Source of the DNA: Mesoplasma florum L1
Lineage (GTDB): Bacteria > Bacillota_I > Bacilli_A > Mycoplasmatales > Mycoplasmataceae
Reading direction: 5' to 3'
NCBI RefSeq assembly: GCF_000008305.1
Contig: NC_006055.1
Coordinates: 330,001 to 362,000 of the forward strand
DNA: 32,000 bases
A program made the position numbers and the translations under genes. The notes under the pieces were generated by a model that did not search any database, had not been told where the DNA came from, and was given only the letters and a program-made list of their open reading frames with translations. Positions 10,777-28,015 of the stretch are shown here, one piece after another (the first letter of the stretch is position 1; each line of letters begins with the position of its first letter).

Positions 10777-12228
10777 ATGAAAAAAATTGAAATAAATAAT
10801 TTTAGATCAATTGAAAAAGCAATAATGAATTTTGGTGAAATAAATTTTTTTATAGGAGATAATAACACTGGTAAAAGTTCTACTCTAAAATTGATTGAGG
10901 CATTAATGCAAAATAGTCATTTGAATTTTCAAAATACTTTTTTATACAGTGAACAAATTGAAAATTTAAAATACAATATTAAAGAACCATTAGAAGTATT
11001 ATATAAAGTAAACTTTGAAAGTGAAAAACAGAAAGAAAAAAATGAGATAATAGAGAATTTTGAATATTTAAAAATAGATTCGATTAATAATTTTGATTAT
11101 CCTTTAATAAAAACTTTAATAGTGCCTTTTTTTGACGAAGATTTTAACAATAATGAACAAAAAAAATTTGAATTTGTAAAATTTGATATTGATTATGAAT
11201 TTAAAGACTATAGACCTGTAATAAAACAATTAGATATAAGCATAAAATATTTATCTTTAATTGAATATAAAAATATAATAAAAAAATTAAAAATAAAAAA
11301 CTTGCTAAATTTAGATTTTGAAATAAAAAAATCAATAAATTTTGATGTAAATCAAAAAAATACTAAATCAAAAAAGGATTTTTATTTCTATTCTATTAAT
11401 TTTTTAACTAGAATATTAAATAATTCAAATAAAAGTGTTGAATTTCGAATAGATATATTATTTGACATTTATCAGCTAATAAAAAAGGAAAATTCCACAA
11501 AAATTAAAGAAGTTCATGGATTATCAAGAATTTTTGGAACAAAAAAAACTAAATATATAGACCCATTAAGACCTATTTTAAAAGATATCTATTTTAAAAA
11601 TGAAATTGATAAAGAAGAAAAACTTCAATTTGTTAGAAAATTAAATGTAAACAATAGTGATTTAAGAATAATTTCTAAATTTTTGAAAAAGTCAAAAATG
11701 CTAGAAAATTTAGATATAGCAAAAATTAAAGCTAAAGAGTTTTCAAGTGAAGCATATAAATTATCATATAAAAAATACAATAAACAAAATATACCAATTT
11801 CAATTTCTGGGACAGGAATTTCACAAATTATTCCGATACTTTTTGCAATTTTAGAAAAAAGAAATGACAAAATTTTCATAGAACAACCTGAAGTTCATTT
11901 ACATCCAAGAGCACAAGCAGAATTTGGAACTTTTATCTCAGACTACATCAATAATTATAGTCAGAAATCAACTTTTAAAAATAACAAAATTTTATTAAAA
12001 AAACAATTTTTTATTGAAACTCATTCTTTATACATGATAAATAGATTTAGAAATGAAATTAAAAATAATAAACTTTGTGATGATAATTCAAGAATTACAT
12101 TTTTTAAAAATACTTCAAAAAAAACTATTATAGAAAGTATAAAGTTTAATGAATTTGGTGAATTTGACGGTAAAATAGATAATTTTCTTAAATTTTTTGT
12201 TGATGAAAATATAAAGAATCTTAGTTAA
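10777..12228 (+). CDS. ABC/SMC-like AAA ATPase (AAA_15/AAA_21, DUF3696-like), candidate defence ATPase
   Basis: Intact 483-aa ORF with no Trp. Walker A GDNNTGKSS, signature-like SGTGISQ, Walker B region KIFIEQPEVHLHP, H-loop IETHS. Starts 13 nt after the infB stop. Confidence 0.8.
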   Translation: MKKIEINNFRSIEKAIMNFGEINFFIGDNNTGKSSTLKLIEALMQNSHLNFQNTFLYSEQIENLKYNIKEPLEVLYKVNFESEKQKEKNEIIENFEYLKIDSINNFDYPLIKTLIVPFFDEDFNNNEQKKFEFVKFDIDYEFKDYRPVIKQLDISIKYLSLIEYKNIIKKLKIKNLLNLDFEIKKSINFDVNQKNTKSKKDFYFYSINFLTRILNNSNKSVEFRIDILFDIYQLIKKENSTKIKEVHGLSRIFGTKKTKYIDPLRPILKDIYFKNEIDKEEKLQFVRKLNVNNSDLRIISKFLKKSKMLENLDIAKIKAKEFSSEAYKLSYKKYNKQNIPISISGTGISQIIPILFAILEKRNDKIFIEQPEVHLHPRAQAEFGTFISDYINNYSQKSTFKNNKILLKKQFFIETHSLYMINRFRNEIKNNKLCDDNSRITFFKNTSKKTIIESIKFNEFGEFDGKIDNFLKFFVDENIKNLS

Positions 12229-12230
12229 TA

Positions 12231-12785
12231 ATGAAAGAAATAAAAAATATAATAGTCGATACTAATTTGATGATCGATATTTTAACTGTAAGAGAAAAAC
12301 CTGTTATTTCTGACTATTCTAAAAATCAACTTTTGACTTTTTTTAAAAAAGGCAAAAATTTTAAGTTAATTATAGCAGGCAAAAAAATGTTAAACGAATT
12401 AACGGGAGAAGAATATAAAGGCAAAAAACAAAATTTATTAGAGTTATTAATGTTAATATCAGCAACTTCTGAAGCTATAAAAATTGAAATAAGAAATGAC
12501 CAAGCAATTGATGAATTAATTTATAAATTTGTTCTTAGTGATAAATGAGACGGAAGAAAAGATGATCCAAATTCGGTTGCAACAAGAATGCCAGCTGATC
12601 CACACATGATATATGTTAGCTACTATTTTGATGTTAAATATATTATGACAAGGGATAAAGATTTTGCAAAAAAAGTTAATTCAAAATATTTACAATATTT
12701 TCCAGATAAATTTTTTTCTCCCGAAGTTATATGTAAATGTTATTGAGAAGATAAGGAATTTGATATTAATTTACTTATTAAATAA
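12231..12785 (+). CDS. PIN-like domain protein (about 184 aa, code 4), candidate nuclease partner of the ATPase
   Basis: Starts 2 nt after the ATPase stop. ORF 12231 continues in frame through 2 TGA codons to TAA at 12783-12785. N-terminal IVDTNLMIDIL and C-terminal ADPHMIYVSYYFDVKYIMTRDKDF resemble the first and last acidic PIN motifs. Confidence 0.55.
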
Positions 12786-12912
12786 AATATGTTTTATATA
12801 AGAGATTATATTGACAAATAAATTGGTTAAATTAAATTTTAAAAAATTCAAATAGCTTACTTAACTTAATTATTTTTTAAATGTAAATTAATTTAAAAAG
12901 GAGAGCTTTAAA

Positions 12913-14802
12913 ATGATAATTTATAAAAATATTAAATCAGGGTTTATTAAAGATGTAGAACAAGGGCTTATAGTAGAAATATTGCAAGAAAAAGTAGATA
13001 GTCTTTTAAAGAGAAAAACAAACATCGCTGAACTAAATAGTTGAAATAATTCACTTAAAGAAATGGCAATAGTTTTGTATGATCAAAATATACCAAGCGA
13101 CTCAGGTATTGCTTTAGAATATAATATTTCTAGAACATCTAAAAGAATAGATTTTATTATAAGTGGAAAAAATAAAGATTTTAAAAAAATAATAATAGTT
13201 GAGTTGAAACAATGACAAGAATGTAAAAAAGTAGAAAATAGTAATACAGTAGTTGAGACTTTTATAGCAGGGAATATTAGAGAAACTGTTCATCCTTCAT
13301 ATCAAGCTTTTTCTTATTCAACTCTTTTAAAAGATTTTACAAAAATTATTCAAAATGATAAAAAAATCAAAATTGAAAGTTGTGCTTATTTACATAACTA
13401 TAAATTGGATAAGGCACCTGATATATTAGCTGATCAATATAAAATATTTTTTGAAAAAAGCCCAGTTTTTTTAAAAGGTGAAATTGAAAAATTTAGAAAC
13501 TTTATTAAAAAAAATATAACTTCAGGAGACAAATGTGAACTTATTCAAAAAATTGATGAAAGTCCTATATCACCAGGAAAGTCAATTCAAGATTTTTTAA
13601 AGGAAATTATCGATGGAAAAGATGTTTTTACATTGATTGATGAACAAAGAACATCATATGAAAAATGCATTCAGATAATTGATGAATATAGAAAAACAAA
13701 GGACAAAAAGGTAATAATAATCCCTGGAGGACCTGGAACAGGTAAAACTGTTATAGCTTTAAGAATTCTTTCTGCTTGTATTCAAAAAGGTTTAAATTCA
13801 ATATATGTTTCCAAAAATGAAAGTTTAAGAAATGGATATAAAAAAATAATTCTTGAAAATGACGTTGAAAAAACATATTCAAGAGCAAGAATAGACAATA
13901 TCTTCTATGGTAGTGCCAAATTTTCCAATCTAACAAAAGATAATTTTGATTGCACGGTTGTTGATGAAGCACATAGATTAATTGAGAGACATCAGTGAAC
14001 GCCTAAAGGAAAAGGATATAACAATCAAATTCAAGAAATAATTTGTGAGTCTAAAGTTTCTATATTTTTTGTTGATGAAAAACAAATAGTTACAACGCAG
14101 GATATTGGAACAATAAAAGAAATAAAAAGATGTGCTTTAAAAGAAGGCATTTTAAGTGAGAACATATTACTATTGGAACCTTTAAAGTCTCAATTTAGAT
14201 CATCTGGAGCCGATGATTATATTGATTTTGTCGATAACATTCTATATGATGAAAACAAAAACGTATTAAACTTTACAAATAATTTCAATTTTAAAGTCTT
14301 TGATAATATAGAAAAAATGTATCAAGAATTGTTAGAAAAAAATACTAAAAATAATGCAAGATTATTAGCAGGTTATTGCTGAAACTGAGTTTCTAAAAAA
14401 AATACTGAAAAAAATGATATTAAAATAAATAACTTTGAAATAAAATGAAATCTTGCAAATGATAAATATTATATGTTCAATAAAGATTCTATATCTCAAG
14501 CAGGTTGCATACATACATCACAAGGTTTGGAAAAAGAATACATTGGTGTTATTATAGGGCCCGACATGATTTATAGAAATAATAAAGTAACTGTCGATTA
14601 TTCAAAAAAAGCCAAAACTGATACTAGTCTAAAAGGAATCGGAAAATTAAGTCAAATGGAAAAACATGAGATAGCAGATAAAATTATAAAAAATACTTAT
14701 AGAGTTTTATTAACAAGAGCTACAAAAGGTTGTTTTGTTTATTGTTGTGATAAAAAACTTGGAACATATATATCAAATAAACTAAATGAATTAATTAAAT
14801 AA
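12913..14802 (+). CDS. DUF2075-type SF1 helicase/ATPase with N-terminal PD-(D/E)xK-like nuclease domain (about 629 aa, code 4)
   Basis: The ATG at 12913 and ORFs 13405, 14173 and 14473 share one frame, joined by TGA. Nuclease-like RIDFIISG...IIIVELKQW; Walker A GGPGTGKT; Walker B VVDEAHRL; then FFVDEKQIV, GYCWNW and GCIHTSQGLEKEYIGVII...YRVLLTRATKG. Confidence 0.8.
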
Positions 14803-14833
14803 AGTAGTAAAATTAATAATAAGAGGTTTTTAA

Positions 14834-15490
14834 ATGTTAAAAGATAAGACTAATTTTATTAATAAATTAAAAATACAAGAGCAACTTAAAGTAGAGTTGC
14901 TTTTTCTTTATGAACGCTTTTCAAATAAAACTATTAATTTAATTAATAAGTTATCATTTGAAATACAAAATATCAAAAACAATATTAATCAATTCACGGA
15001 TACTGATTTTTCATCAAATTTATATAACGAATTTAAACTAAAAGTTTTAATGAATCAAGATATTATTGAAAACAAAATAGAATTAATTGATGAAAGCTTC
15101 AAAGAAATTGATTTAAAAAAGCTTGAACAGTTAATGAATGAAATCATTTACAAATTAAATGAAAATTACATTTTAACTATTAAAAAATGAAAACAATTTA
15201 TATTAAACAAATATGAAATTGATTTTGAATCAATTGAAATCAATTTTTCTGAAAACAAAAATAAGTTTGAAGACTTTTCACGTAAAAATATATTAGGCTC
15301 TAATTCAAACGTTGACTTCTGACCTTATGAAATACTAGGAATTAGTTTAAATGCTTCAGACATGCAAATAAAACAAGCTTATAAAGCATTAGCTAAGAAG
15401 TATCATCCAGATAATAACAAAGACCCTGAAGCAGAAGAAATGATGAAATTGATAAATAAAGCATATAATATATTAAGAGGAAAAGAATAA
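14834..15490 (+). CDS. coiled-coil protein with C-terminal J-domain (about 218 aa, code 4)
   Basis: ORF 14834 continues through 2 TGA codons to TAA at 15488-15490. The C-terminus [51 protein letters not shown] is a canonical J-domain with an HPD motif. Confidence 0.8.
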
Positions 15491-15499
15491 TGAAAAGTA
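15478..15499 (+). repeat. 22-nt direct repeat, copy 1 (AGGAAAAGAATAATGAAAAGTA) spanning the start of the first membrane-protein gene
   Basis: Exact match to 16411..16432, read directly from the sequence. Confidence 0.7.
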
Positions 15500-16398
15500 C
15501 AATAAAAAAAATATTAAAATTTAGTCTATTATTAATTATTATTTGATCAATCTGAATAGTAATTTTTCTTTTTTCGATTTTAATTGAAATTAAATTTAAT
15601 TTACAATATTTTTCTTTATTATTTAAAGAAGAAAAAGATTTTTTATTAATTTTATTAGTTTCAACTTTGTGCTTATCTTTATTTACATTATTTTTAATTG
15701 AAAGTATTAAAATTGCTTTAGTTACAAAAAGTACTATATTTTATAAAAACTTTAATAAAAAAATAAAAGCTTATTCCTTTTTTAGAAATGGAGAAAAGGA
15801 ATTAATTAATAAGTATAATAGTTGATTAAAATTAAAAAAAGTTAAATCTAATTTTGAAGAAAATAATTTATTTATTATATCATTTTTTGGTTTAGTAATT
15901 TGCTATATTTTTCCAATTTTATTAATTATTTTTACACTAATATTTGCAGATTTAAATACTTTTATTTCAAAATTGTCTATTTCATTTTTAAGTCTTAGTC
16001 AACTTATATTACCTATATTTAAACTTTGAAATAAGTTTGATTTTAGTTCTTGGAATTCTTTAAGATTAAAAATTTCAAAAGCTATAGACGATGATAAGGA
16101 AATTAGAATAATTCACAATAATAAAAAAAACTTATTAATTCTGAATATAGTTACTGTTGATGATTTCAAAAAAACAAGAAATGAAATTCAAGTTTTAGAT
16201 GAATACATTAAAATAAAAGGCAAAGAAACAGCAATTTATAAAAATAAAAAAGAATGACTTGAATTTCAAATAGATATTAATTTGAAATTTATAAAATTCA
16301 CAGATAATTATTTTGATGAAACAATTGAAACTTTTTTAACTTACATAAGAAAAAATAAAATTATATTTAAAAACTTTTTAAAATATGCAAAAATATAA
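15490..16398 (+). CDS. hypothetical membrane protein, about 4 predicted TM segments plus soluble C-terminal domain (about 302 aa, code 4)
   Basis: The ATG overlaps the upstream TAA by 1 nt. The frame is open to TAA at 16396-16398 with 5 TGA codons. Hydrophobic stretches include LLLIIIWSIWIVIFLFSIL, LLILLVSTLCLSLFTLFLI and FIISFFGLVICYIFPILLIIFTLIF. The standard-code track misses it. Confidence 0.6.
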
Positions 16399-16410
16399 AA
16401 TTAAAATAAA

Positions 16411-16432
16411 AGGAAAAGAATAATGAAAAGTA
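16411..16432 (+). repeat. 22-nt direct repeat, copy 2, spanning the start of the second membrane-protein gene
   Basis: Exact match to 15478..15499. Confidence 0.7.
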
Positions 16433-17208
16433 AAATAAGAAAATTAAAATTATCAATAGGTTTTTTATTAGGTTTTGAAGCATTAATCATATTAGCAATG
16501 GTTATACTATCATTTAAATGATCATGATTAATCTTTTTAACAGCTGGAGTTGGATATATATTATTTGTATTACATAATTTAGTATTTGTAATTAGAAGAA
16601 AAGTTATTATAAAGAAATTTAATAATACAATTAAAGAAAATTTAATATTTAAGTCATACATAGAAAAAAGAAATTATATTCATAACTTTTTAATATTTTA
16701 TACATCATTTTTTATATTAGTATTTGTAACTATTGCAACAATAGTATTTTTATTTGTAACTGATACAGATAATAGTATTGCACTAGATTTATTAAGTTTA
16801 ATTTCTGCTGCTTTAGTAATAGTTTCTCCATTTTTAGGAGCATTTTATAAAAAGATAACAAACATAACACAAACTGAAGGTGATATGAAAAATGATGCGC
16901 TTAGAAAAGATATCAAATATGTAATAACAGGTAATACAAGTTTAAATAAGGCAATTAATGATATAAACTTAAATACTAAAACAATTGAACTATTAAAAAA
17001 TGAAAAAGAGATTAATTCACAAAAAATAGTAAAAAGATTAAATAATCGTATTAACAATATTAATGAACAAATTTCATTATTTGAAGTGTATTTATTATTT
17101 GAGGCTTTCTTAAAAGAAATCGATGAAAAGGCTAAAATTAAAGAATTTAAAAACAATATTTTAACTAAAAAGAACTTATCTGAAATAGTAGTTATTTTAA
17201 ATAAATAA
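16423..17208 (+). CDS. hypothetical membrane protein, same architecture as the upstream gene, coiled-coil C-terminus (about 261 aa, code 4)
   Basis: The ATG at 16423 is in frame with track ORF 16885..17208 via 2 TGA codons. N-terminus MKSKIRKLKLSIGFLLGFEALIILAMVILSF. Shares a 22-nt start-region repeat with the upstream gene. Confidence 0.6.
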
Positions 17209-17226
17209 AAGAAGGGAAAAACTATC

Positions 17227-17946
17227 ATGAGCAATAGAGTGAATGACAAAATAAAAATGTCAGAACAAGAAATTAAGTATAGAGATTTAAAAATTCAAAA
17301 ATACGTTATTAAAGATATTTTGCAAAAAGTTGTGAAAACTGGTTTTGACAAAACAAATCTTTATTTTGTTTCTCTTGGCTCTAAAGCAAGACAAGCATAT
17401 AAATTTGTGATGTTTACTAAACAATGAGTAAGTTCTATTATTAAAGATGTTGAGTTACTACCAATAAAAGAAAAATATAAAATTAAAGCTATAAAAAAAC
17501 TAATTAAATTAGAAAACTTTGAAATAGTTAAAGAAAAAAGATTAAAAACATATGAAATAGATCAAAAATATTTAGATTTAGTAATTCAAAAATTGCTATC
17601 AAAGAATAAATTAATAGCAATTAGAAAACTTAAGAAAAAACTTTTTATTTTAACTGATAATCGTAAAAAACAATATACTAATAATTTGAATGTTTTAAAT
17701 ACTATTAATTTTAAAACAGTAGAAGATCAAAAGAAGATGTATCAAAATTTATGAGATAAAGAAGTTAAAGAATATTTAAATGAAAGAGAAATAGCTTTAA
17801 CTAGACTAAAAGACCCTAAAAGATACAATTTCTTAAATGATTATTATAAAAAAGATCCTAAGAATACATTATTAAAAGATTTTAAACCAGATAAAGAAAA
17901 ATATGATATTTTTAAATCAATCATTAAAGGTGAGATAAATGTTTAG
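17227..17946 (+). CDS. hypothetical Lys-rich protein (about 239 aa, code 4)
   Basis: ORF 17227 continues through 2 TGA codons to TAG at 17944-17946 and overlaps the rsmE start by 8 nt. I recognise no domain. Confidence 0.5.
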
Positions 17947-18655
17947 ATATTTTGTTGAAATTAAAAAAGATAATAATTTTTTTATTATTAATAATAACGA
18001 TGTACATCATATAAAAAATGTTGTAAAACTTAAAAATGATGAAATTATTGAGTGTGTTTATGAAAAAGAAGTTTATCAAACTAAAATTATTGATTTAACT
18101 ATTGAAAATAATGTAATTGTTGAAATTATTAATAAAGTAGAAACAACAATAAGCAATGTTAAAAAAGTTTTAATAGCTGGAGTTTTAAGAGAACAAAAAT
18201 GAGATTATTTATTACAAAAATCAACAGAACTTGGAGTTGATGAAATAATACCAGTTATTTTTAAGAGAAATGTAGTTAAAATTGATGAAAAAAAGATTGA
18301 TCAAAAACTGCAAAGATGACAAGCAATTTGTGACACAGCTGCTAAACAAGCAAAAAGGACAACAATCCCTGTTGTTAATAATTTAATAACTAATCTAAAA
18401 GATTTAAAAAACAATTTATGTGATTTAAATCTTGTGGCTTGAGAAAAAGAAAAAAATATTGAACTTAAAACATATTTAACACAAGACTTTAATTCAATTA
18501 GTTTCATTATTGGGTGTGAAGGTGGAATTGAAGTTAGTGAAATTAAAATTCTGCACGAAATAGGTTTTAAGAATGTTAGTCTAGGAACTAATATATTAAG
18601 AGCTGAAACAGCACCAACTTATGTATTAAGTAGTTTAATTTATGAAAATAAATAA
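17939..18655 (+). CDS. rsmE: 16S rRNA (uracil1498-N3)-methyltransferase RsmE (about 238 aa, code 4)
   Basis: ORF 17939 continues in frame through 3 TGA codons. The C-terminal IGCEGGIEVSEI...LGTNILRAETAP is the RsmE SPOUT signature. Confidence 0.85.
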
Positions 18656-18698
18656 TCTTAGTATTTAAATTAAAAGTCAATAAGTATATAATTATAAC

Positions 18699-18748
18699 GT
18701 GTCTGGCACCGCCTTTCCTTAATTATCAATTATATTTTAGCCAGACAC
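18699..18748 (+). other. 9-bp perfect inverted repeat (GTGTCTGGC ... GCCAGACAC) with about 32-nt spacer; candidate structured RNA or protein-binding site
   Basis: Read directly from the sequence. It is preceded by a TATAAT-like box (about 18686-18697) and abuts the terminator at 18749. Confidence 0.4.
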
Positions 18749-18772
18749 ATCACCCTAACCGGTGATTTTTTT
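18749..18772 (+). terminator. Rho-independent terminator
   Basis: ATCACC-ctaacc-GGTGAT followed by T7, downstream of rsmE. Confidence 0.7.
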
Positions 18773-18811
18773 ATGTTTAAAAGAAGGTGCGCTGTTTTTA
18801 AAAAATAAAAC

Positions 18812-18848: not shown

Positions 18849-20216
18849 ATGGAAAAAATAAAAGTTTTCGAAACGTTTTCAGGTATAGGTGCTCAACATA
18901 AAGCTTTAGATATTTTAAAACAAAATAATTATATAAATTATGAAGTTGTTGGAACGAGCGAATGAGATATATGAGCCAATATAGCGTATAATGCAATTCA
19001 TAATAAAAATATAGATCATACAAAAAATATTAGTGAGAAAGAGATTAATGACTTTTTAATTAAATTTACACATTCAAGAGATTCAAAAACTCCGCTTACA
19101 AATGAACAAGTAATCAAATTACCGATAATAATAAAACAAAATTTATATAACTCTATTAAAAATTCAAACAATTTAGGAAGTATAGTTGGCGTTACTGGCA
19201 ATATGATATCATCTCAAGTAGGTAAGATAGATTTATTAACTTATTCATTTCCATGCCAAGATTTATCTACTGCAGGAAGCTTTCATGGGAAAAATCAAGG
19301 AATGAAAAAAAATAGTGGAACAAGATCAGGTCTTTTATGAGAAATTGAAAGAATATTAAAAGAACTTAAAGCAAAAAAAGAATTACCAAAATATTTGCTT
19401 TTAGAAAATGTTAATAACATGATTTCGGAAAGACATAAAGATGATTACTTAATGTGATTAGATTTTTTAAATTCAATTGGATATAATACTCAAACTTACG
19501 TATTAGAAGCAAACAAATATGGTTGCCCACAAAATCGTAAAAGAGTTTTTGCGTTGAGCGTTAGAAAAGATGTAACTAAAGAATTTAAGGATACTTTTTT
19601 AGAAAGTAAAAGAACAAGCATTAAAGAAGAAAAAACACCATTTGATATTTCTAAAGAAATAGGCATATATAAAAAAACACATGAATTGCTGAGAGAGGAT
19701 TATTCAATAGAAAAATACAAAAATGAAGCAATAAATGCAATTCCTAATAGAACTGATAGTAGAAAAAGAATTTTTTTAAATAATAAAATGCTTTCAACAC
19801 AGGAAAATACAAATATTGAAAAACATTCTAAAAATATATATATCCAAAATGGAAAAACGTATTCAAATTTTTCTTCAACTATAACAACTAAACAAGATAG
19901 AGATCCTAATGGCGGAATCATAAACTTAAAAGGTACAGATTTGCAAAATAGATATAATGAAAAAAAACAAATTAGGAAAGCAAATTTTAGACTTTTAACG
20001 CCTAGAGAGTGTTATATGTTAATGGGTTTTTCAGAGAATGATTTTGATAAAGTTTTATCAAAAGCTGAGCAAATTAATTTTAGTGTAAGTGTAAGAAAAA
20101 AAACTTTTACTGACAGTATACTTTACAGACAAAGCGGGAACAGTATATCTGTCAATGTTTTAACTTCTATTTTTAAAGTAATTGCAGATATAGAAAATAA
20201 AACATTTAAAGGATAA
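18849..20216 (+). CDS. DNA (cytosine-5)-methyltransferase (about 455 aa, code 4)
   Basis: Motif I FETFSGIGAQ, IV SFPCQDLS, VI LLENV, VIII QNRKRVF, IX RLLTPRECYMLMGF, X QSGNSISVNVL. The ATG at 18849 is in frame with track ORF 19554..20216 via TGA codons. Confidence 0.92.
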
Positions 20217-20244
20217 AAAGATATAATTTTAAAAAAGGGGTAAT

Positions 20245-22752
20245 ATGAAAAAAAGAATATTTAATAAATTTCAACCATATTTAAATGAATTTGAAAAAGA
20301 AAAAATAGCATTAGTAGAGGAAAAAATAACAGGTGATAATGAAAGAATAGCTAATGACGTTTCAGTGGATTTAATAATTATATTAGAATCAAAAATGATG
20401 AGCATATTAGAAAAATATGATATTTATTGTCCATTAGATGAAAGAGGAGCTAAAAATCTATTTGATAAAATAAGAAGTTTATATATACGAGAAAAAAAAC
20501 TTGAGTCAGAAAAGTTTACAAATGTTAACATACCTAAAATTATATATTCAACTTTTGAATATATAAGAAATTGAAGAAATAATGATGGTGGTCATGCGTC
20601 TGAATTTGTCATAAACAGAAGTTTTATGGATACAATACATTTACTGAAGTGTTTTGATATAGTTTTATCATTTTTAATTAATTTTTTTGATGATTTAGAC
20701 TTTGAAATAAATGAGTTTGATGAAAAAGGTTTACTTTCTTCATGAAATAAAAGGGGTCATTTTATAGATGAAATTTTAGAGGAAGATAAAAAATTAGATA
20801 CAACATCTATAAAACTAGGGAAAATAAATTTAAGTTCTTTTGTTTTAAATTCAGAAATAAGTTTTTTTATACCATCGTATCAAAGAAAATATAGATGAGA
20901 ATCAGAAACTTGCTTAGAGCTTATAGAAAATATCATTTCTAAAATTGATCAAATTGATGACGAATATTTTGGAACTATAGCAGTTACTATAGAGGAATCT
21001 AAACATAATGAAAAAATAAGAACAATAAGATTAATAGATGGGCAACAAAGAGTAACTACCTCTTTAATTATATTTAGAGCAATATATGATGTTTGAAATG
21101 ATAAAAAAAATAATTCTTATGAAGAAACAGTAATGGATACACCTTTAGAATTAGAAAAAACTTTCAAAGAAATTGGGTGTGCAGAAAAATATAAAAATGT
21201 TACAGGAGTTAAAGAAGAAAATGAAGCTCTTAATTTTATATTAAATTCTAATGTTAGTTACGTCGAAAGATTAAAAACAATAAATTCTTTTGAGCTACAT
21301 AATAAATCATTAGCAGCTAAAAATTACAATGCTATACACGATAGAATTAAAGAATTGAATCAAGATGAATTACTTTCTTTTTATAATAGATATGCATATA
21401 AGTTTCTAATTTCATGTGTTGATTTTAATAAAACTCCAGCAGAAGAAATGGAAATTTTTGAAACACTTAATTCTAAAGGGACTGAATTAGATTCGTTTGA
21501 TATGATAAAAAACTTTTTATTTAATTTAGTAGATAAAGAAATTTATATAAATAATGAATTAGAAATAACTAGAATATTTAATGATTATATTTCTTTTAAT
21601 GATATGAAGTTAGATGAAGCTAAAACGAGAAAGGTACAAGAAAACTTTTTATTTGGTTTTTGTGAATATAAGATGTTAAATTTTAAAGCATCAGATAATA
21701 CTTTGAGCAAAAATAAAAAATCAATTTTAAAGCATTTTAAAAAAATTTATGAAGGTAAACAAAACTTATCTTTAGAAGAGTATAAAAAAATAGTATCAGA
21801 GATAGGTAAATATGTTTTTATAACTAAATCATTTATATCAAAAAGTTATGAAAATGACACAAATGATATTTTATACCCAATAAGATATAATGTTTCAAAT
21901 ATATCGCATAAAGAAGTTTCGATTTTTATTTTGTATTATTTTATTGACTTATATGCTAAAAATAATTGAGATTCTTATAATAAAACATTAAATTATTCAG
22001 AAAAAGTGAATTTAATGAAAGATACTTTATTTGAATTTGAAAGATGATTGATAGCTCTACTTCAAGTTTATGGAACTGGACAATCTTTAACAAAACCAAT
22101 ATTGAGATTATTTAGATTTTTAAATACATTCGACATTGATAATCATTCTGTACAAAGTGAAATACCAAATATGATTAGAAAATGATTAAATTTAGAAGCA
22201 ACTGATGCGTTTGCATTTTTAAATAATGACCAAAGAAGATTATTATTAGAAAACAATGAATTGAAAATGCCTAATAAAGATTTATTTTTTGAAAACTTAA
22301 TAAACAAAAAAGTTCAAGATAAAAATGTGGCAATGGTAATTTTAAAAAGATTGGAAAGTTTTTTAATCAATAATTGAGAAATTAAAAGAGATAAAAACTC
22401 TCTTGAACATATAATGCCTAGAACTATAAAAAAAACAAAATGAATTGAATACTTAAAGGAAAATGAAAGTTTGACTGAAAAAGATATTTTAGAAAAACAT
22501 TCAGTTTATTTAGATAAATTGGGTAATTATATGATATTAGACAAAAGTAAAGAAAATTCAAAGATTTCTAATAATGATTTTGAAGAAAAAAGGAAGCAAT
22601 ATATACTTTGAAGTAATCCATTAGCTGAATTAATATTTGATTATAATGAAAAGAAAAATTTAAATAATATCAATAAGTTTGGTTTTGATGAGATTCAAGA
22701 AAGAACCGTTGCATTAGCTAAAATAATTTCTGAAAATATTTATTATAAATAA
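20245..22752 (+). CDS. DUF262 (ParB-like NTPase) + DUF1524 (HNH-like) GmrSD-family nuclease with about 200-aa N-terminal extension (about 835 aa, code 4)
   Basis: ORFs 20245 and 21133 share a frame that stays open through TGA codons to TAA at 22750-22752. DUF262 motifs IPSYQRKYRW and IRLIDGQQRVTTSLIIF; DUF1524/HNH-like SLEHIMPRT...LDKLGNYMILDKSKENSKISNNDF. The N-terminal IRNWRNNDGGHA resembles DUF4145. Confidence 0.8.
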
Positions 22753-22765
22753 TAGGAGTAGAAAA

Positions 22766-23392
22766 ATGTCAAAAAATGTAACTTTAATACTTATAGCTGG
22801 TGGAACAGCATCAGGAAAAACAACTGTTGCTGATAGAATAGCTAATGAAATTTTAAAAGGTAAATCGGTAACTCATATTTCAATGGATAATTATTATAAA
22901 GATTTTGGTGAATTGACTTTAGAAGAAAGAAGGAAAATAAACTTTGATCATCCAAATAGTGTGGATACTGAACTACTTTTAAATGACTTGCAAGCTTTAA
23001 AAGACTATCAACCAATCAAGGTGCCGGTTTATGATTTTAAAACTTCTTCAAGAACCAAAGAAACAATTACAGTTAAACCTAGTGATGTTGTAATACTTGA
23101 TGGAATTTTTGCACTAGCTATTAAAGAGATTAGAAAACTTGGAGATATCAAAATTTTTATAAAAACAGCTAATGATTTAAGGTTTATTAGACGTTTACAA
23201 AGAGATGTAAATGAAAGAGGGAGAACTTTAGAAAGTGTTGTTGAACAATACTTAAATGAAGTTAAACCAATGCATGATGCATTTATTGGGCCAAGTATTG
23301 AATACGCTGATTTAATAATTCCTTATAAAGAGGGGAATGAAGTTGCAGTTGATTTAGTAGCAACTAAAATATTAACATTGTTAACAGAGTAA
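22766..23392 (+). CDS. udk: uridine kinase
   Basis: Intact 208-aa ORF with P-loop IAGGTASGKTT, NFDHPNS, and RRLQRDVNERGR typical of Udk. Confidence 0.93.
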   Translation: MSKNVTLILIAGGTASGKTTVADRIANEILKGKSVTHISMDNYYKDFGELTLEERRKINFDHPNSVDTELLLNDLQALKDYQPIKVPVYDFKTSSRTKETITVKPSDVVILDGIFALAIKEIRKLGDIKIFIKTANDLRFIRRLQRDVNERGRTLESVVEQYLNEVKPMHDAFIGPSIEYADLIIPYKEGNEVAVDLVATKILTLLTE

Positions 23393-23436
23393 AAAAACAT
23401 AGATGTCTTTTTAAATAAGGCCTCTATGTTTTTTGA
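23391..23436. terminator. bidirectional A/T-flanked hairpin between convergent udk and the restriction gene
   Basis: AAAAAACATAGA ... TCTATGTTTTTT with a 19-nt loop and U-runs on both strands. It overlaps the last codons of the minus-strand CDS. Confidence 0.5.
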
Positions 23437-24769
23437 TTAAAAATGAAATTGTTTTGCGATTTAATCAAAATGCTTGAAATGTTAAATTAGAATTTTCATA
23501 TTTATTTTTGGCATTTGAATTTTTTGCTTTAGGTCTTAAATGAAAATCTTTGTCTTCTTTTTGTTTAGTTAGAATAAAATCTTCTTTTTTACCTTTATTT
23601 ATTGTTTCAAAAGAAAGTTTTGTTTGCTTTCAAATGTTCTCTGCATTTTTATAAATTCTTTCATTAATATCTTTTTTTGAAATAATACCATCAAGCAGAA
23701 CGACATCTTTAATGATTTTTTTACTAAAAATATTTTCATCTATTGTAACTATAATATATGGTTTTGTAAGCTCTTGATAAAATAAAGAATCCTCAAATTT
23801 GTTTTCTTTTAATATTTCATCAATTTTAATGTGATGAGACGAAATTGGCATACTTTCCTGTGTTATTTCACCAGATTTACTTAGTCTCATGGTTCTTACT
23901 TTTATTTGATCTTCACTAATTAGTTCTAAAATTGAATCATCATATTCTTCTAACATCTTTTTTAGAATTATTCCGTTTGCTTGTTTTGCAGAAGTATTGA
24001 TATTATTTTTTTTAGCATAATCAGATAAATCTGCGTTTATAAAATTCTTTAAAAAGTTATAAGCTTTTAAACTAGAAGTATTAAAATAAGCATTTATACT
24101 TTCAAAATCACTTCCTGTTAAAATGTAATTTACATATCACTTTTTTAAAGCAAAAGCTCTACTTTTTGCTTTAAAATCACTATTTGGTTGATTTCTTAAA
24201 TCTTTATTTTTACCTTGCCCCTTTGTTGTCGCTTCTAAAATTTTAGTGTCTGAACAAGAAAGCTCATGAGCAATTCCATTTTGTATTTTTTGATAAATTA
24301 TTGAGTAATCATTTTCAATAATTTTTTTTTCATTTTCAGAAATATTTTCATACTTTCATAGTATAGATTTTATGATTTTTAAATTTTTACGATTTTTGTC
24401 CTTGTTGTATTCGTGACCTATTAAAAGTATATTTTTATTTTTATTAAGAACCTTTGAATCAGTAAAATCTTTTTCTATATTATTAAAATCAATCATTGAA
24501 AGAGAAACTCTTTCTTTTGCAATTCACTGTTTTTTCTTGTTTTGTTTTAAACCAGTAACTTTTAATTCTAAATCTAAACCTAACTCTTTAAAATCGCTTT
24601 CAGATCTGTTATTTATGTCAATATTGAAATAATACTTTTGAATTAAATTTCCTATTCTTCCTTTATCTTTAAGTTTATAATCAATTTCATCAAAATTAAT
24701 TATTTCTCCTAATTGTTTATTTTCCGCTTCTTTTGCTCTACGAAATATATCATCTATTGTCTTATTCAT
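23411..24769 (-). CDS. type II restriction endonuclease, Sau3AI/MutH family (about 452 aa, code 4); GATC specificity predicted by family only
   Basis: Minus-strand ORFs 24524..24769 and 23630..23956 share a frame joined by TGA. N-terminal KGRIGNLIQKYYFNI..SESDFKELGLDLELKVTGLK (MutH-like D..ELK); central EATTKGQG...AKSRAFALKKWYVNYIL; C-terminal FHLRPKAKNSNA...QAFWLNRK (second MutH-like half, as in Sau3AI). Confidence 0.8.
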
Positions 24770-24794
24770 ATTATATTTTCTCTTCCTATTTTAG

Positions 24795-24802
24795 TGTATA
24801 AT
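24795..24802 (+). promoter_or_regulatory. extended -10 TGTATAAT for the methyltransferase gene
   Basis: About 45 nt upstream of the ATG at 24847, in the 77-nt divergent intergenic region. Confidence 0.45.
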
Positions 24803-24813
24803 TTATTAATGTT

Positions 24814-24819
24814 ATTATA
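24814..24819 (-). promoter_or_regulatory. -10 TATAAT (minus strand) for the restriction gene
   Basis: The forward ATTATA reads TATAAT on the minus strand, about 45 nt upstream of the start at 24769. It is 12 nt from the opposing -10 box. Confidence 0.4.
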
Positions 24820-24846
24820 AAATATTTTATGAAAGAGTGTGAAATA

Positions 24847-28015
<3,169 letters not shown>

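What the first reader, a model, noticed from the sequence alone, without database searches (positions are those of the whole stretch)
14834..17946. Compact four-gene cluster of unknown function: C-terminal J-domain protein, two paralogous 4-TM proteins and a Lys-rich protein, packed between the helicase-nuclease and rsmE
Gene spacing is 32 nt, then a 1-nt overlap, 25 nt, 19 nt, and an 8-nt overlap with rsmE, which implies a single transcript. The first product has a long coiled-coil N-terminus and a canonical J-domain (KKYHPD) at the C-terminus, the opposite of the DnaJ layout. A J-domain's established role is to recruit Hsp70/DnaK. The next two products share an architecture of two TM hairpins plus a soluble tail. 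A J-domain adaptor coupled to membrane proteins next to a nuclease-helicase does not match any defence or chaperone operon I know of. It could be a DnaK-dependent membrane effector or sensor module. An alternative reading is a degenerate relic of the Firmicute dnaJ-prmA-rsmE synteny, or lineage-specific surface or housekeeping genes.
Basis: inference. Interest (0 to 1): 0.7.

Follow-up and report, generated by a model that had tools for sequence, protein, structure and literature searches.

The report
Core J-protein operon in Mesoplasma florum
The four genes are real and are co-transcribed with rsmE in Mesoplasma florum L1, but they are a patchwork (a conserved J-domain co-chaperone paired with an orphan membrane protein, a basic protein tied to rsmE, and one strain-specific inserted gene), not a defence system, and most of the descriptive facts are already published.

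Summary
The window is Mesoplasma florum L1, which reads TGA as Trp. Window coordinate + 330,000 gives the genome coordinate. The four ORFs are mfl299-mfl302.

- **Transcript.** Published 5'-RACE and RNA-seq place them with rsmE in one unit, TU_166.
- **Not one system.** Eleven related loci show J (mfl299) followed by the 4-TM protein mfl301 in every genome, usually with a 1-nt stop/start overlap. mfl302 is coupled to rsmE by an 8-nt overlap.
- **mfl300 ("g2").** It is found only in L1. It sits in the J/g3 junction between a duplicated 45-nt copy of that junction, and it has no detectable similarity to mfl301.
- **Neighbours.** The DUF2075 gene belongs to a variable island between infB and "dnaJ" that was already described in 2018.
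- **Selection and homology.** J, g3 and g4 are under purifying selection (dN/dS 0.10-0.35). g3 is an orphan family: only its own family was hit among 1.84 billion representatives. No defence-system model matches any of the four.
- **Essentiality.** Published transposon data call mfl299 putatively essential (miss probability 0.098), canonical dnaJ dispensable, and dnaK and grpE essential.

Best reading, inferred: a specialised class C J-protein with a membrane partner that brings DnaK to the membrane. Interest is modest.

The parts
14808..14821 (+). Promoter of the operon: -10 box TAAAAT (14808-13) and mapped transcription start A at 14821, giving a 13-nt 5' UTR
   Evidence: Published 5'-RACE gTSS 344820/1 with -10 box 344807-344813 (Matteau 2020 Dataset EV1). 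Sequence checked.
14834..15490 (+). mfl299 (g1): class C J-domain protein, 218 aa. It has an N-terminal three-helix bundle (~16-126), a disordered linker with an invariant FEDF motif (145-148), and a C-terminal J-domain (163-216) with HPD at 191-193. It has no helix IV and no TM segment.
   Evidence: Pfam DnaJ 6.5e-20. AF2 pLDDT 76.8. Foldseek hits to J-domains only. Alignment A3. Core gene with no transposon insertion. dN/dS 0.16-0.35.
15469..15513 (+). Left copy of the duplicated J-stop/g3-start junction that brackets the g2 insertion
   Evidence: 45-nt direct repeat, 87% identical, spacing 933 nt. A single-copy junction in M. tabanidae aligns to both L1 copies.
15490..16398 (+). mfl300 (g2): strain-specific ORFan, 302 aa, 3-4 TM helices plus a ~120-aa cytoplasmic tail, GC 16%. 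It is inserted between J and g3, and its first ~7 codons derive from the duplicated g3 start.
   Evidence: Non-core and non-essential. Singleton cluster found only in L1. Absent from 10 related loci. No match in phages, plasmids, viral contigs or metagenomes. No Pfam, NCBIfam, PADLOC or PHROG hit.
16402..16446 (+). Right copy of the duplicated junction. It contains a relic of the last J codons (..AAAGGAAAAGAATAA) immediately before the g3 start codon.
16423..17208 (+). mfl301 (g3): orphan 4-TM protein, 261 aa. TM helices at ~10-30, 36-57, 90-112 and 120-141, with N and C termini inside and a 120-aa helical cytoplasmic tail. It is the conserved partner of the J gene.
   Evidence: Hydropathy and positive-inside rule. 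Alignment A1 with an invariant juxtamembrane motif. Exhaustive HMMER search found only its own family. dN/dS 0.10-0.17, similar to rsmE. Detected by proteomics at ~110 copies per cell.
17227..17946 (+). mfl302 (g4): basic (pI 9.85, 20.5% Lys) protein of 239 aa, predicted all-helical, with an 8-nt overlap with rsmE
   Evidence: AF2 model has low confidence (pLDDT 45). No Pfam or PDB match. Core and non-essential. Stays attached to rsmE when 6 kb is inserted between g3 and g4.
17939..18655 (+). mfl303 rsmE (16S rRNA m3U1498 methyltransferase), last gene of the transcription unit
   Evidence: Pfam Methyltrans_RNA 2.3e-47 and PUA_4. Member of TU_166.
18749..18778 (+). Intrinsic terminator that ends TU_166: stem-loop 18749-18765 followed by a U run
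   Evidence: Matteau 2020 Datasets EV2 and EV3. Fold.
10777..14802 (+). Not part of the unit. This is the variable accessory island between infB and the J gene: mfl296 OLD/AriA/GajA-like ATPase, mfl297 (184 aa), and mfl298 DUF2075/SLFN-type helicase.
   Evidence: Pfam. PADLOC AriA 3.5e-27 and PDC-S41 9.5e-20. All three are non-core and non-essential. The locus was described as highly variable in Baby 2018.

Best explanation
The cluster is a composite, lineage-restricted core operon (published TU_166) of Mesoplasma florum and its sister species. It is not a single four-gene system.

(1) mfl299 encodes a specialised class C J-domain co-chaperone. Its stop codon overlaps the start codon of its conserved partner, the orphan 4-TM protein mfl301. 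I infer that the two form a two-polypeptide, membrane-associated J-protein. The helical cytoplasmic tail of mfl301 would dock the N-terminal three-helix bundle or the conserved FEDF linker of mfl299, and the HPD J-domain would then trigger ATP hydrolysis in DnaK at the membrane. That would direct DnaK to membrane-proximal clients. This follows the logic of DjlA (a single chain) and of the AtcJ operon (a J-protein with operon-encoded partners).

(2) mfl302 is a basic helical protein translationally coupled to rsmE. It is most simply a nucleic-acid- or ribosome-associated accessory protein.

(3) mfl300 is an L1-specific ORFan cassette that landed in the J/g3 junction and duplicated it.

Shown here or in the literature: gene structure, the transcript, the conservation pattern, purifying selection, the J-domain fold, TM topology by hydropathy, and the insertion scar. 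Inferred: the physical J-g3 interaction, DnaK recruitment to the membrane, and any role of mfl302.
For: - J and g3 are adjacent in all 11 loci examined. They overlap by 1 nt (TAATG) in 8 of them, and the slot is interrupted by an inserted cassette in 2.
- In the most distant locus (L008) the pair persists next to rsmE although g4 is missing. There g3 is 48% identical, and J is homologous over residues 68-208 (hhalign 98.7%).
- dN/dS is 0.10-0.35 for J, g3 and g4, against 0.10-0.13 for rsmE.
- The J-domain is canonical, with HPD invariant.
- g3 topology puts both termini and a 120-aa tail in the cytoplasm.
- The operon has one promoter and one terminator.
- mfl299 is core and received no transposon insertion. 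Canonical dnaJ (mfl414) tolerated insertions, and dnaK and grpE did not. This is compatible with mfl299 serving an important DnaK function.
- The g3 protein is detected. The J protein is not, which matches the sub-detection abundance of class C J-proteins in E. coli.
Against: - No direct evidence for a J-g3 interaction was obtained. A complex prediction could not be run.
- In M. melaleucae, g3 is N-terminally truncated and carries internal deletions, and g4 is truncated, while J stays intact. J can therefore persist without an intact g3.
- g3 is non-essential while J is scored essential, so J's key function cannot depend wholly on g3.
- The essentiality call is weak: a 657-bp gene, a miss probability of 0.098, and one insertion per ~280 bp on average.
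- Co-transcription with rsmE and the position downstream of infB would fit a ribosome-related role equally well.
- TM topology rests on hydropathy alone.
Confidence: 0.45

Rival explanations
1. A soluble, g3-independent specialised J-protein. mfl299 would target DnaK to a cytosolic client or process, such as ribosome or translation-factor biogenesis, given its operon with rsmE and the basic protein mfl302 downstream of infB. The adjacency to g3 would then be operon packing only.
For: J survives intact where g3 and g4 are degraded in M. melaleucae. J is scored essential but g3 is not. J has no TM segment. It is co-transcribed with rsmE and by read-through from the rimP-nusA-infB promoter.
Against: The 1-nt stop/start overlap of J and g3 is preserved across species and is even regenerated as a duplicated junction after insertions. 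g3 is as constrained as rsmE. In M. chauliocola the J-g3-g4 trio is not followed by rsmE, so the tie to rsmE is looser than the tie to g3.
Confidence: 0.25
2. A defence or abortive-infection module. The J-protein and the membrane proteins would act with the neighbouring DUF2075 helicase or AriA-like ATPase as a DnaK-dependent membrane effector or sensor.
For: The operon lies between two variable islands rich in defence genes: an AriA/GajA-like ATPase and a DUF2075/PDC-S41-like protein upstream, and restriction-modification genes downstream. Read-through transcription from upstream exists. The strain-specific g2 is a small membrane protein of the general kind used as an effector.
Against: J, g3 and g4 are core genes, while DUF2075 and its neighbours are non-core. 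The upstream neighbour is type I R-M, PTS or sugar genes, or other genes in 9 of 11 loci. There are no PADLOC hits for g1-g4. The operon has its own promoter. J is scored essential in rich medium without phage.
Confidence: 0.04
3. A degenerate relic of the Firmicute dnaJ-prmA-rsmE arrangement. mfl299 would be a decayed dnaJ and mfl302 a decayed prmA.
For: A J-domain gene lies upstream of rsmE, as in the Bacillus order dnaJ-prmA-rsmE (that order is from my own knowledge). The J-domain is 59% identical to a bacterial DnaJ J-domain.
Against: The J-domain is C-terminal, whereas a truncated DnaJ would keep it N-terminal. No G/F, zinc-finger or C-terminal domain remnants are present (DnaJ_bact 66.5 bits against a cutoff of 377, with only the J-domain matched). 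An intact hrcA-grpE-dnaK-dnaJ cluster exists at 484-489 kb. g4 has no PrmA or methyltransferase signal in Pfam, in any of 11 orthologues. All three genes are under purifying selection and are not decaying. g4 is absent from the most distant locus.
Confidence: 0.05
4. g2 and g3 are true paralogues produced by a tandem duplication of g3 that included the junction, after which the upstream copy diverged beyond recognition.
For: They share an overall architecture and similar size. Both start MKS.I+K. The arrangement [J 3' end][g2][relic of J 3' end][g3] is what a tandem duplication would leave.
Against: The flanking 45-nt repeats are still 87% identical, whereas the interiors show no similarity at DNA or protein level. 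g2 exists only in L1, while g3 is 94-95% identical to its M. tabanidae and M. grammopterae orthologues, so there has been no time for such divergence. Strain W37 carries an unrelated 141-aa soluble ORF in the same slot with the same kind of duplicated junction, which points to recurrent insertion rather than duplication.
Confidence: 0.08

Closest known systems
DjlA (E. coli class C membrane J-protein)
   Same: Both have a C-terminal J-domain preceded by a helical region. Both are associated with the cytoplasmic face of the membrane and are low-abundance DnaK co-chaperones. NCBIfam gives a weak DjlA hit spanning residues 64-207. DjlA works with DnaK, and class C J-proteins fall below proteomic detection.
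   Different: DjlA carries its own N-terminal TM anchor (from my own knowledge). mfl299 has none, and any anchoring would be through a separate 4-TM protein. The score of 26 bits is far below the family cutoff of 162. There is no sequence relation outside the J-domain.
AtcJ-AtcABC operon of Shewanella oneidensis
   Same: [quoted passage not shown] In the AtcJ case these include its direct binding partner.
   Different: AtcJ has an N-terminal J-domain with a 21-aa C-terminal extension, and its partners are unrelated to g3 and g4. NCBIfam ActJ scores 33.6 bits against a cutoff of 150. The cold-adaptation phenotype has not been tested here.
Canonical DnaJ (class A) of the same genome, mfl414
   Same: Both have an HPD J-domain, and the mfl299 domain is 59% identical to a bacterial DnaJ J-domain. 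RAST annotated both as 'Chaperone protein DnaJ'.
   Different: mfl299 has no G/F region, zinc finger or client-binding C-terminal domains, and its J-domain is at the C-terminus. mfl414 is scored non-essential and mfl299 putatively essential.
Pam18/Tim14-Pam16 and Sec63-type membrane J-proteins of eukaryotes
   Same: The logic is the same: a J-domain held at a membrane by TM segments or a partner subunit, activating Hsp70 locally (from my own knowledge).
   Different: There is no homology beyond the J-domain, no translocon link is shown here, and the system is bacterial.

Membership tests
J-domain proteins (Pfam PF00226) | Helix II - HPD loop - helix III fold matching the family model above its gathering score | tested here: met
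   71.4 bits against a cutoff of 27.8, residues 164-216. HPD is invariant in 13 orthologues. The model superposes on solved J-domains at 0.6-1.0 A rmsd. Helix IV is missing.
J-domain proteins (Pfam PF00226) | Stimulates Hsp70/DnaK ATPase in an HPD-dependent way | not testable with these tools
   This needs a biochemical assay with M. florum DnaK (mfl415) and an HPD-to-QPD control.
Class A/B DnaJ (TIGR02349 DnaJ_bact) | N-terminal J-domain followed by a G/F region, with or without a zinc finger, and C-terminal client-binding domains | tested here: not met
   66.5 bits against a cutoff of 377.2. Only model positions 3-55 matched, and at the protein's C-terminus.
DjlA (NF006948) | Family-level sequence match | tested here: not met
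   26.2 bits against a cutoff of 162.
DjlA (NF006948) | N-terminal TM anchor in the same polypeptide as the C-terminal J-domain | tested here: not met
   No hydrophobic segment in mfl299. The C-terminal position of the J-domain is shared.
AtcJ/ActJ cold-adaptation J-protein (NF050028) | Family-level sequence match | tested here: not met
   33.6 bits against a cutoff of 150, J-domain only.
Known anti-phage defence systems (PADLOC-DB 2.0) | Any of the four proteins matches a defence-system component model | tested here: not met
   No hits for mfl299-302 at E<=0.01, whereas the neighbours mfl296 and mfl298 do hit.
Major facilitator superfamily (label given to mfl301 in earlier annotation) | Match above the Pfam MFS_1 gathering score and a 12-TM architecture | tested here: not met
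   22.7 bits against a cutoff of 33.4, and only four TM helices.
PrmA (for mfl302, under the dnaJ-prmA-rsmE relic idea) | Match to the PrmA or SAM-methyltransferase fold | tested here: not met
   No methyltransferase family at E<=0.1 in any of 11 orthologues. No PDB sequence-profile hit. The structure model was too poor for a fold test.
RsmE (for the downstream gene) | Methyltrans_RNA and PUA_4 domains | tested here: met
   161.1 and 30.5 bits, both above cutoff.

The most novel reading that the evidence does not exclude
In M. florum the essential work of DnaK may be routed through the orphan J-protein Mfl299 rather than through canonical DnaJ. Published transposon data score dnaJ as dispensable and dnaK, grpE and mfl299 as not interrupted. 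Mfl299 would act as a split, two-polypeptide membrane J-protein with the orphan 4-TM protein Mfl301. Separately, the J-stop/g3-start junction may act as a reusable landing site where unrelated gene cassettes integrate by duplicating ~45-55 nt of the junction, which keeps them translationally coupled to the J gene.
Probability: 0.2. Interest if true: 0.55.

Novelty: new member of a known kind. Interest (0 to 1): 0.3.

Why it matters
M. florum is a chassis organism for minimal-genome design. mfl299 is one of the 57 putatively essential genes with no homologue in JCVI-syn3.0. Knowing that it is a specialised DnaK co-chaperone with a dedicated membrane partner would explain one of those differences. 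It would also inform which genes can be removed: mfl300 clearly can, whereas the mfl299/mfl301 pair should be treated as a unit. The comparison also shows that the apparent four-gene system next to a helicase is an accident of island insertion, which is a useful caution when reading gene neighbourhoods in hot-spot regions. Beyond this lineage the impact is limited, because specialised J-proteins with operon-encoded partners are already known.

Tried and rejected
- A genome-contig scan with RsmE returned nothing usable. The second scan, with the g3 alignment, returned only M. grammopterae. A systematic survey of rsmE neighbourhoods across Entomoplasmatales, the M. mycoides cluster and Spiroplasma was therefore not possible.
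- The exhaustive HMMER search with the g3 profile found only the family itself.
- The AF2 model of g4 was too poor (pLDDT 45) for a fold search.
- Foldseek against PDB matched only the J-domain of mfl299. The three-helix bundle gave nothing specific.
- PDB profile searches for g3 and g4 found nothing meaningful.
- Pfam scans of all g4 orthologues gave only sub-threshold noise.
- PHROGs hit only the J-domain.
- g2 had no relatives in phages, plasmids, viral contigs or JGI metagenomes.
- The W37 141-aa insert looked MazF/PemK-like by eye, but it has no Pfam or PADLOC support, so I dropped that idea.
- Rfam found nothing in the window.
- No paper mentions mfl299 by name.
- I first mis-assigned locus tags by one row and corrected this (notes).
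Full report
**Identity of the window.** Under table 11 the region breaks into short ORFs. Reading TGA as Trp gives a clean set of long + strand genes. The J protein is 100% identical to a protein named 'heat shock protein chaperone [Mesoplasma florum L1]'. Published gene tables place the window at genome coordinate = window coordinate + 330,000. In-frame TGA codons fall at conserved Trp positions, such as J W163 and g4 W176. The genes are:
- mfl299: J protein, 14834-15490
- mfl300: g2, 15490-16398
- mfl301: g3, 16423-17208
- mfl302: g4, 17227-17946
- mfl303: rsmE, 17939-18655

**Check of the observation.**
- Gene spacings are 31 nt, a 1-nt overlap, 24 nt, 18 nt and an 8-nt overlap.
- The J-domain is real and C-terminal: Pfam DnaJ E=6.5e-20 at residues 164-216. 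HPD is invariant in 13 orthologues. It is 59% identical to the Thermus DnaJ J-domain and superposes at 0.6 A in the model. It ends after helix III.
- The N-terminal part is predicted with high confidence as three long helices (16-50, 57-83, 91-126), followed by a disordered linker at 130-160. That linker carries an invariant FEDF motif, which is kept as HEDF in the most distant orthologue.
- Hydropathy gives four TM helices in g3, with both termini and a 120-aa tail inside by the positive-inside rule. g2 has three strong TM helices and one weaker one, in a similar layout.
- g4 has 20.5% Lys and a pI of 9.85.
- The one element of the title that fails is 'paralogous'. g2 versus g3 gives BLASTP E=0.75 and hhalign probability 0.4% against the g3 family.

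**What is already published.** Matteau et al. 2020 (PMC7745072) report the following:
- A 5'-RACE transcription start maps at 344821, with a TAAAAT -10 box, 13 nt upstream of the J gene.
- TU_166 (344820-348780) contains exactly these four genes plus rsmE and ends at a predicted terminator.
- A longer read-through unit starts at the rimP promoter.
- Mean FPKM values are 236, 61, 84, 121 and 201 for J, g2, g3, g4 and rsmE. dnaA is at 193.
- Only g3 (~110 molecules per cell) and RsmE (~41) were detected by proteomics.

Baby et al. 2018 (PMC5893858) report the following:
- mfl299 is classed as core and putatively essential, with no syn3.0 homologue and a transposon miss probability of 0.098.
- mfl300 is non-core and non-essential.
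- mfl301, mfl302 and rsmE are core and non-essential.
- mfl296-298, including DUF2075, are non-core and non-essential.
[quoted passage not shown] The 'dnaJ' in that sentence is mfl299.
- Insertion density was about one per 280 bp, and every gene without an insertion was called putatively essential.

**Comparative anatomy.** I retrieved the locus from five further M. florum strains, from M. tabanidae, M. grammopterae, M. chauliocola and M. melaleucae, and from one more distant unnamed assembly, L008. I re-called ORFs in code 4 for most of them.
- *J and g3.* They are adjacent in every genome. They overlap by 1 nt (TAATG) in 8 of the 11. L1 and W37 carry an insert in the slot. L008 has a 33-nt spacer.
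- *g4.* It is always joined to rsmE when both are present. M. grammopterae and one M. florum strain have about 6 kb (genes of 424, 533 and 836-837 aa) inserted between g3 and g4, which leaves J-g3 and g4-rsmE as separate blocks.
- *L008.* It has J, g3 and rsmE but no g4.
- *M. chauliocola.* It has J, g3 and g4, but no rsmE was found after them.
- *M. melaleucae.* J is intact, but g3 is N-terminally truncated with internal deletions and g4 is truncated.
- *Upstream of J.* Only one other strain has the AAA_15/DUF2075 island. Elsewhere the neighbours are type I R-M systems, PTS or sugar genes, or other genes.

The cluster is therefore two tight pairs plus accessory inserts, flanked by variable islands.

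**g2 is an insertion.** The single-copy J/g3 junction of M. tabanidae aligns to two places in L1. L1 carries a 45-nt direct repeat, 87% identical with a 22-nt exact core, at 15469-15513 and 16402-16446. The two copies are 933 nt apart and bracket g2. As a result, g2 begins with the duplicated g3 start (MKS.I+K), and the g2-g3 spacer contains a relic of the last J codons. The interior of g2 has no similarity to anything:
- It forms a singleton cluster.
- It has no family hits.
- It has no match in phages, plasmids, viral contigs or metagenomes.

Strain W37 has an unrelated 141-aa soluble ORF in the same slot, again bracketed by a duplicated junction, here 55 nt with the last ~24 nt identical. 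These are two independent insertions at one junction.

**Are the genes functional?** dN/dS against M. tabanidae, M. grammopterae and M. chauliocola is as follows:

| Gene | dN/dS range |
|---|---|
| J | 0.16-0.35 |
| g3 | 0.10-0.17 |
| g4 | 0.22-0.46 |
| rsmE | 0.10-0.13 |

g3 has long invariant stretches in and after TM4. An exhaustive profile search of 1.84 billion representative proteins found only its own family, so it is a true orphan family. g4 has no Pfam, PDB or PADLOC match, and its model has low confidence.

**Mechanism.** Two things are established. mfl299 is a class C J-domain protein, and J-domains act by stimulating Hsp70 ATPase (established knowledge, reviewed in PMC8215388). 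The conserved stop/start overlap with g3, and the equal constraint on g3, make g3 the best candidate for its partner or anchor. I therefore favour a two-polypeptide membrane-associated J-protein that brings DnaK to the membrane. It would be analogous to single-chain DjlA and to the AtcJ operon, where the J-protein binds an operon-encoded partner. The published pattern of dnaK and grpE uninterrupted, canonical dnaJ interrupted and mfl299 uninterrupted fits an important DnaK-linked role. However, the statistical support for mfl299 essentiality is weak. Three facts count against an obligate complex: g3 is non-essential, g3 is degraded in M. melaleucae, and no interaction was tested. The main rival is a soluble J-protein with a cytosolic client, possibly ribosome-related. 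For g4, the basic helical composition and the coupling to rsmE suggest nucleic-acid or ribosome association. This is inference only.

**Rejected readings.**
- *Defence.* There are no PADLOC hits. The genes are core, they have their own promoter, and their neighbours vary.
- *dnaJ-prmA-rsmE relic.* The domain order is wrong. An intact dnaK operon lies elsewhere. g4 shows no PrmA signal. The genes are under purifying selection, not decaying.
- *DjlA or AtcJ membership.* Scores are far below the family cutoffs.
- *MFS label on g3.* The hit is below Pfam's threshold, and the protein has only four TM helices.

**Verdict.** The 'four-gene system next to a helicase-nuclease' is a by-product of island and cassette insertion around a small, lineage-restricted core operon. 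The transcript, conservation and essentiality data for that operon are already public. What is new here:
- The operon resolves into a J-g3 pair and a g4-rsmE pair.
- g3 is an orphan family.
- g2 carries an insertion scar.
- The J/g3 junction has been used repeatedly as an insertion site.

Interest is modest (0.3).

Noticed in passing
window 18699-18778 (+): A GC-rich ~80-nt element lies just after rsmE. It has its own TATAAT box (18687-18692), a strong mapped TSS (2918 reads), and a terminator. It folds as a 9-bp stem closing a 32-nt loop plus the terminator hairpin (MFE -22.1, z = -6.2). It is 94-98% identical in 8 other Mesoplasma loci, which is more conserved than the flanking genes. In one strain it sits 1.7 kb from rsmE, behind an inserted methylase pair. 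It has no Rfam match. It is already listed as non-coding TU_NC_012 in Matteau 2020, with no known function.
   Followed up: partly
window 15469-15513 and 16402-16446; L012 8606-8660 and 9059-9113: The J-stop/g3-start junction has been hit independently in two strains by unrelated inserts: the 302-aa 4-TM ORFan in L1 and a 141-aa soluble ORF in W37. Each insert is bracketed by a 45-55-nt direct duplication of the junction. The repeat spacings are 933 and 453 nt, both multiples of three. This looks like Campbell-type integration of a circle carrying a junction copy, or a cassette-like mechanism.
   Followed up: partly
L009 5917-6900 (M. grammopterae): Inside the restriction-modification island upstream of the intact J gene there is a decayed second copy of the J gene, with frameshifts and stops, followed by a decayed fragment of the infB 3' end. 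This suggests islands are exchanged or added by recombination that uses infB and the J gene as homologous flanks.
   Followed up: partly
L009 11048-16537; L014 9701-15193: A three-gene insert (424, 533 and 836-837 aa) sits between g3 and g4 in M. grammopterae and in one M. florum strain. The last two genes have lipoprotein-like N-termini. This is a second insertion slot inside the operon.
   Followed up: no
window 10777-14802: The accessory island after infB holds an OLD-family ATPase (PADLOC AriA 3.5e-27, also NsnB and GajA models), a 184-aa protein with a faint PIN-like signal, and a DUF2075/SLFN-type helicase (PDC-S41 9.5e-20, AbiO 2.9e-10). The same three-gene set occurs in diverged form in M. 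florum CP022508 (L010). It may be one three-gene defence system.
   Followed up: partly
M. florum L1 genome 484-489 kb (outside the window) versus window 14834-15490: In the published transposon data, dnaK (mfl415) and grpE (mfl416) are uninterrupted, canonical dnaJ (mfl414) is interrupted, and the J-only gene mfl299 is uninterrupted. This hints that mfl299 can supply the J-function DnaK needs.
   Followed up: partly
L005 10657-11906 (M. melaleucae): g3 is split into 52-aa and 223-aa ORFs and carries internal deletions, and g4 is cut to 155 aa with ~1.1 kb of non-coding sequence before rsmE. The J gene remains intact. The same state is seen in an independent read-set assembly, L006.
   Followed up: partly
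window 18849-26061: Downstream of rsmE is a second variable region. It holds a C5 DNA methylase, an 835-aa protein ('RloF'), udk, a 452-aa minus-strand restriction enzyme ('LlaKR2I'), and another C5 methylase. In other strains different R-M genes occupy this position on both sides of udk.
   Followed up: no
L001 (Logan SRR9399843 contig end): An independent short-read assembly of this strain breaks ~28 nt after the DUF2075 stop, at the start of the 16-21% GC operon. This is probably a coverage or assembly effect of the extreme AT content.
   Followed up: no
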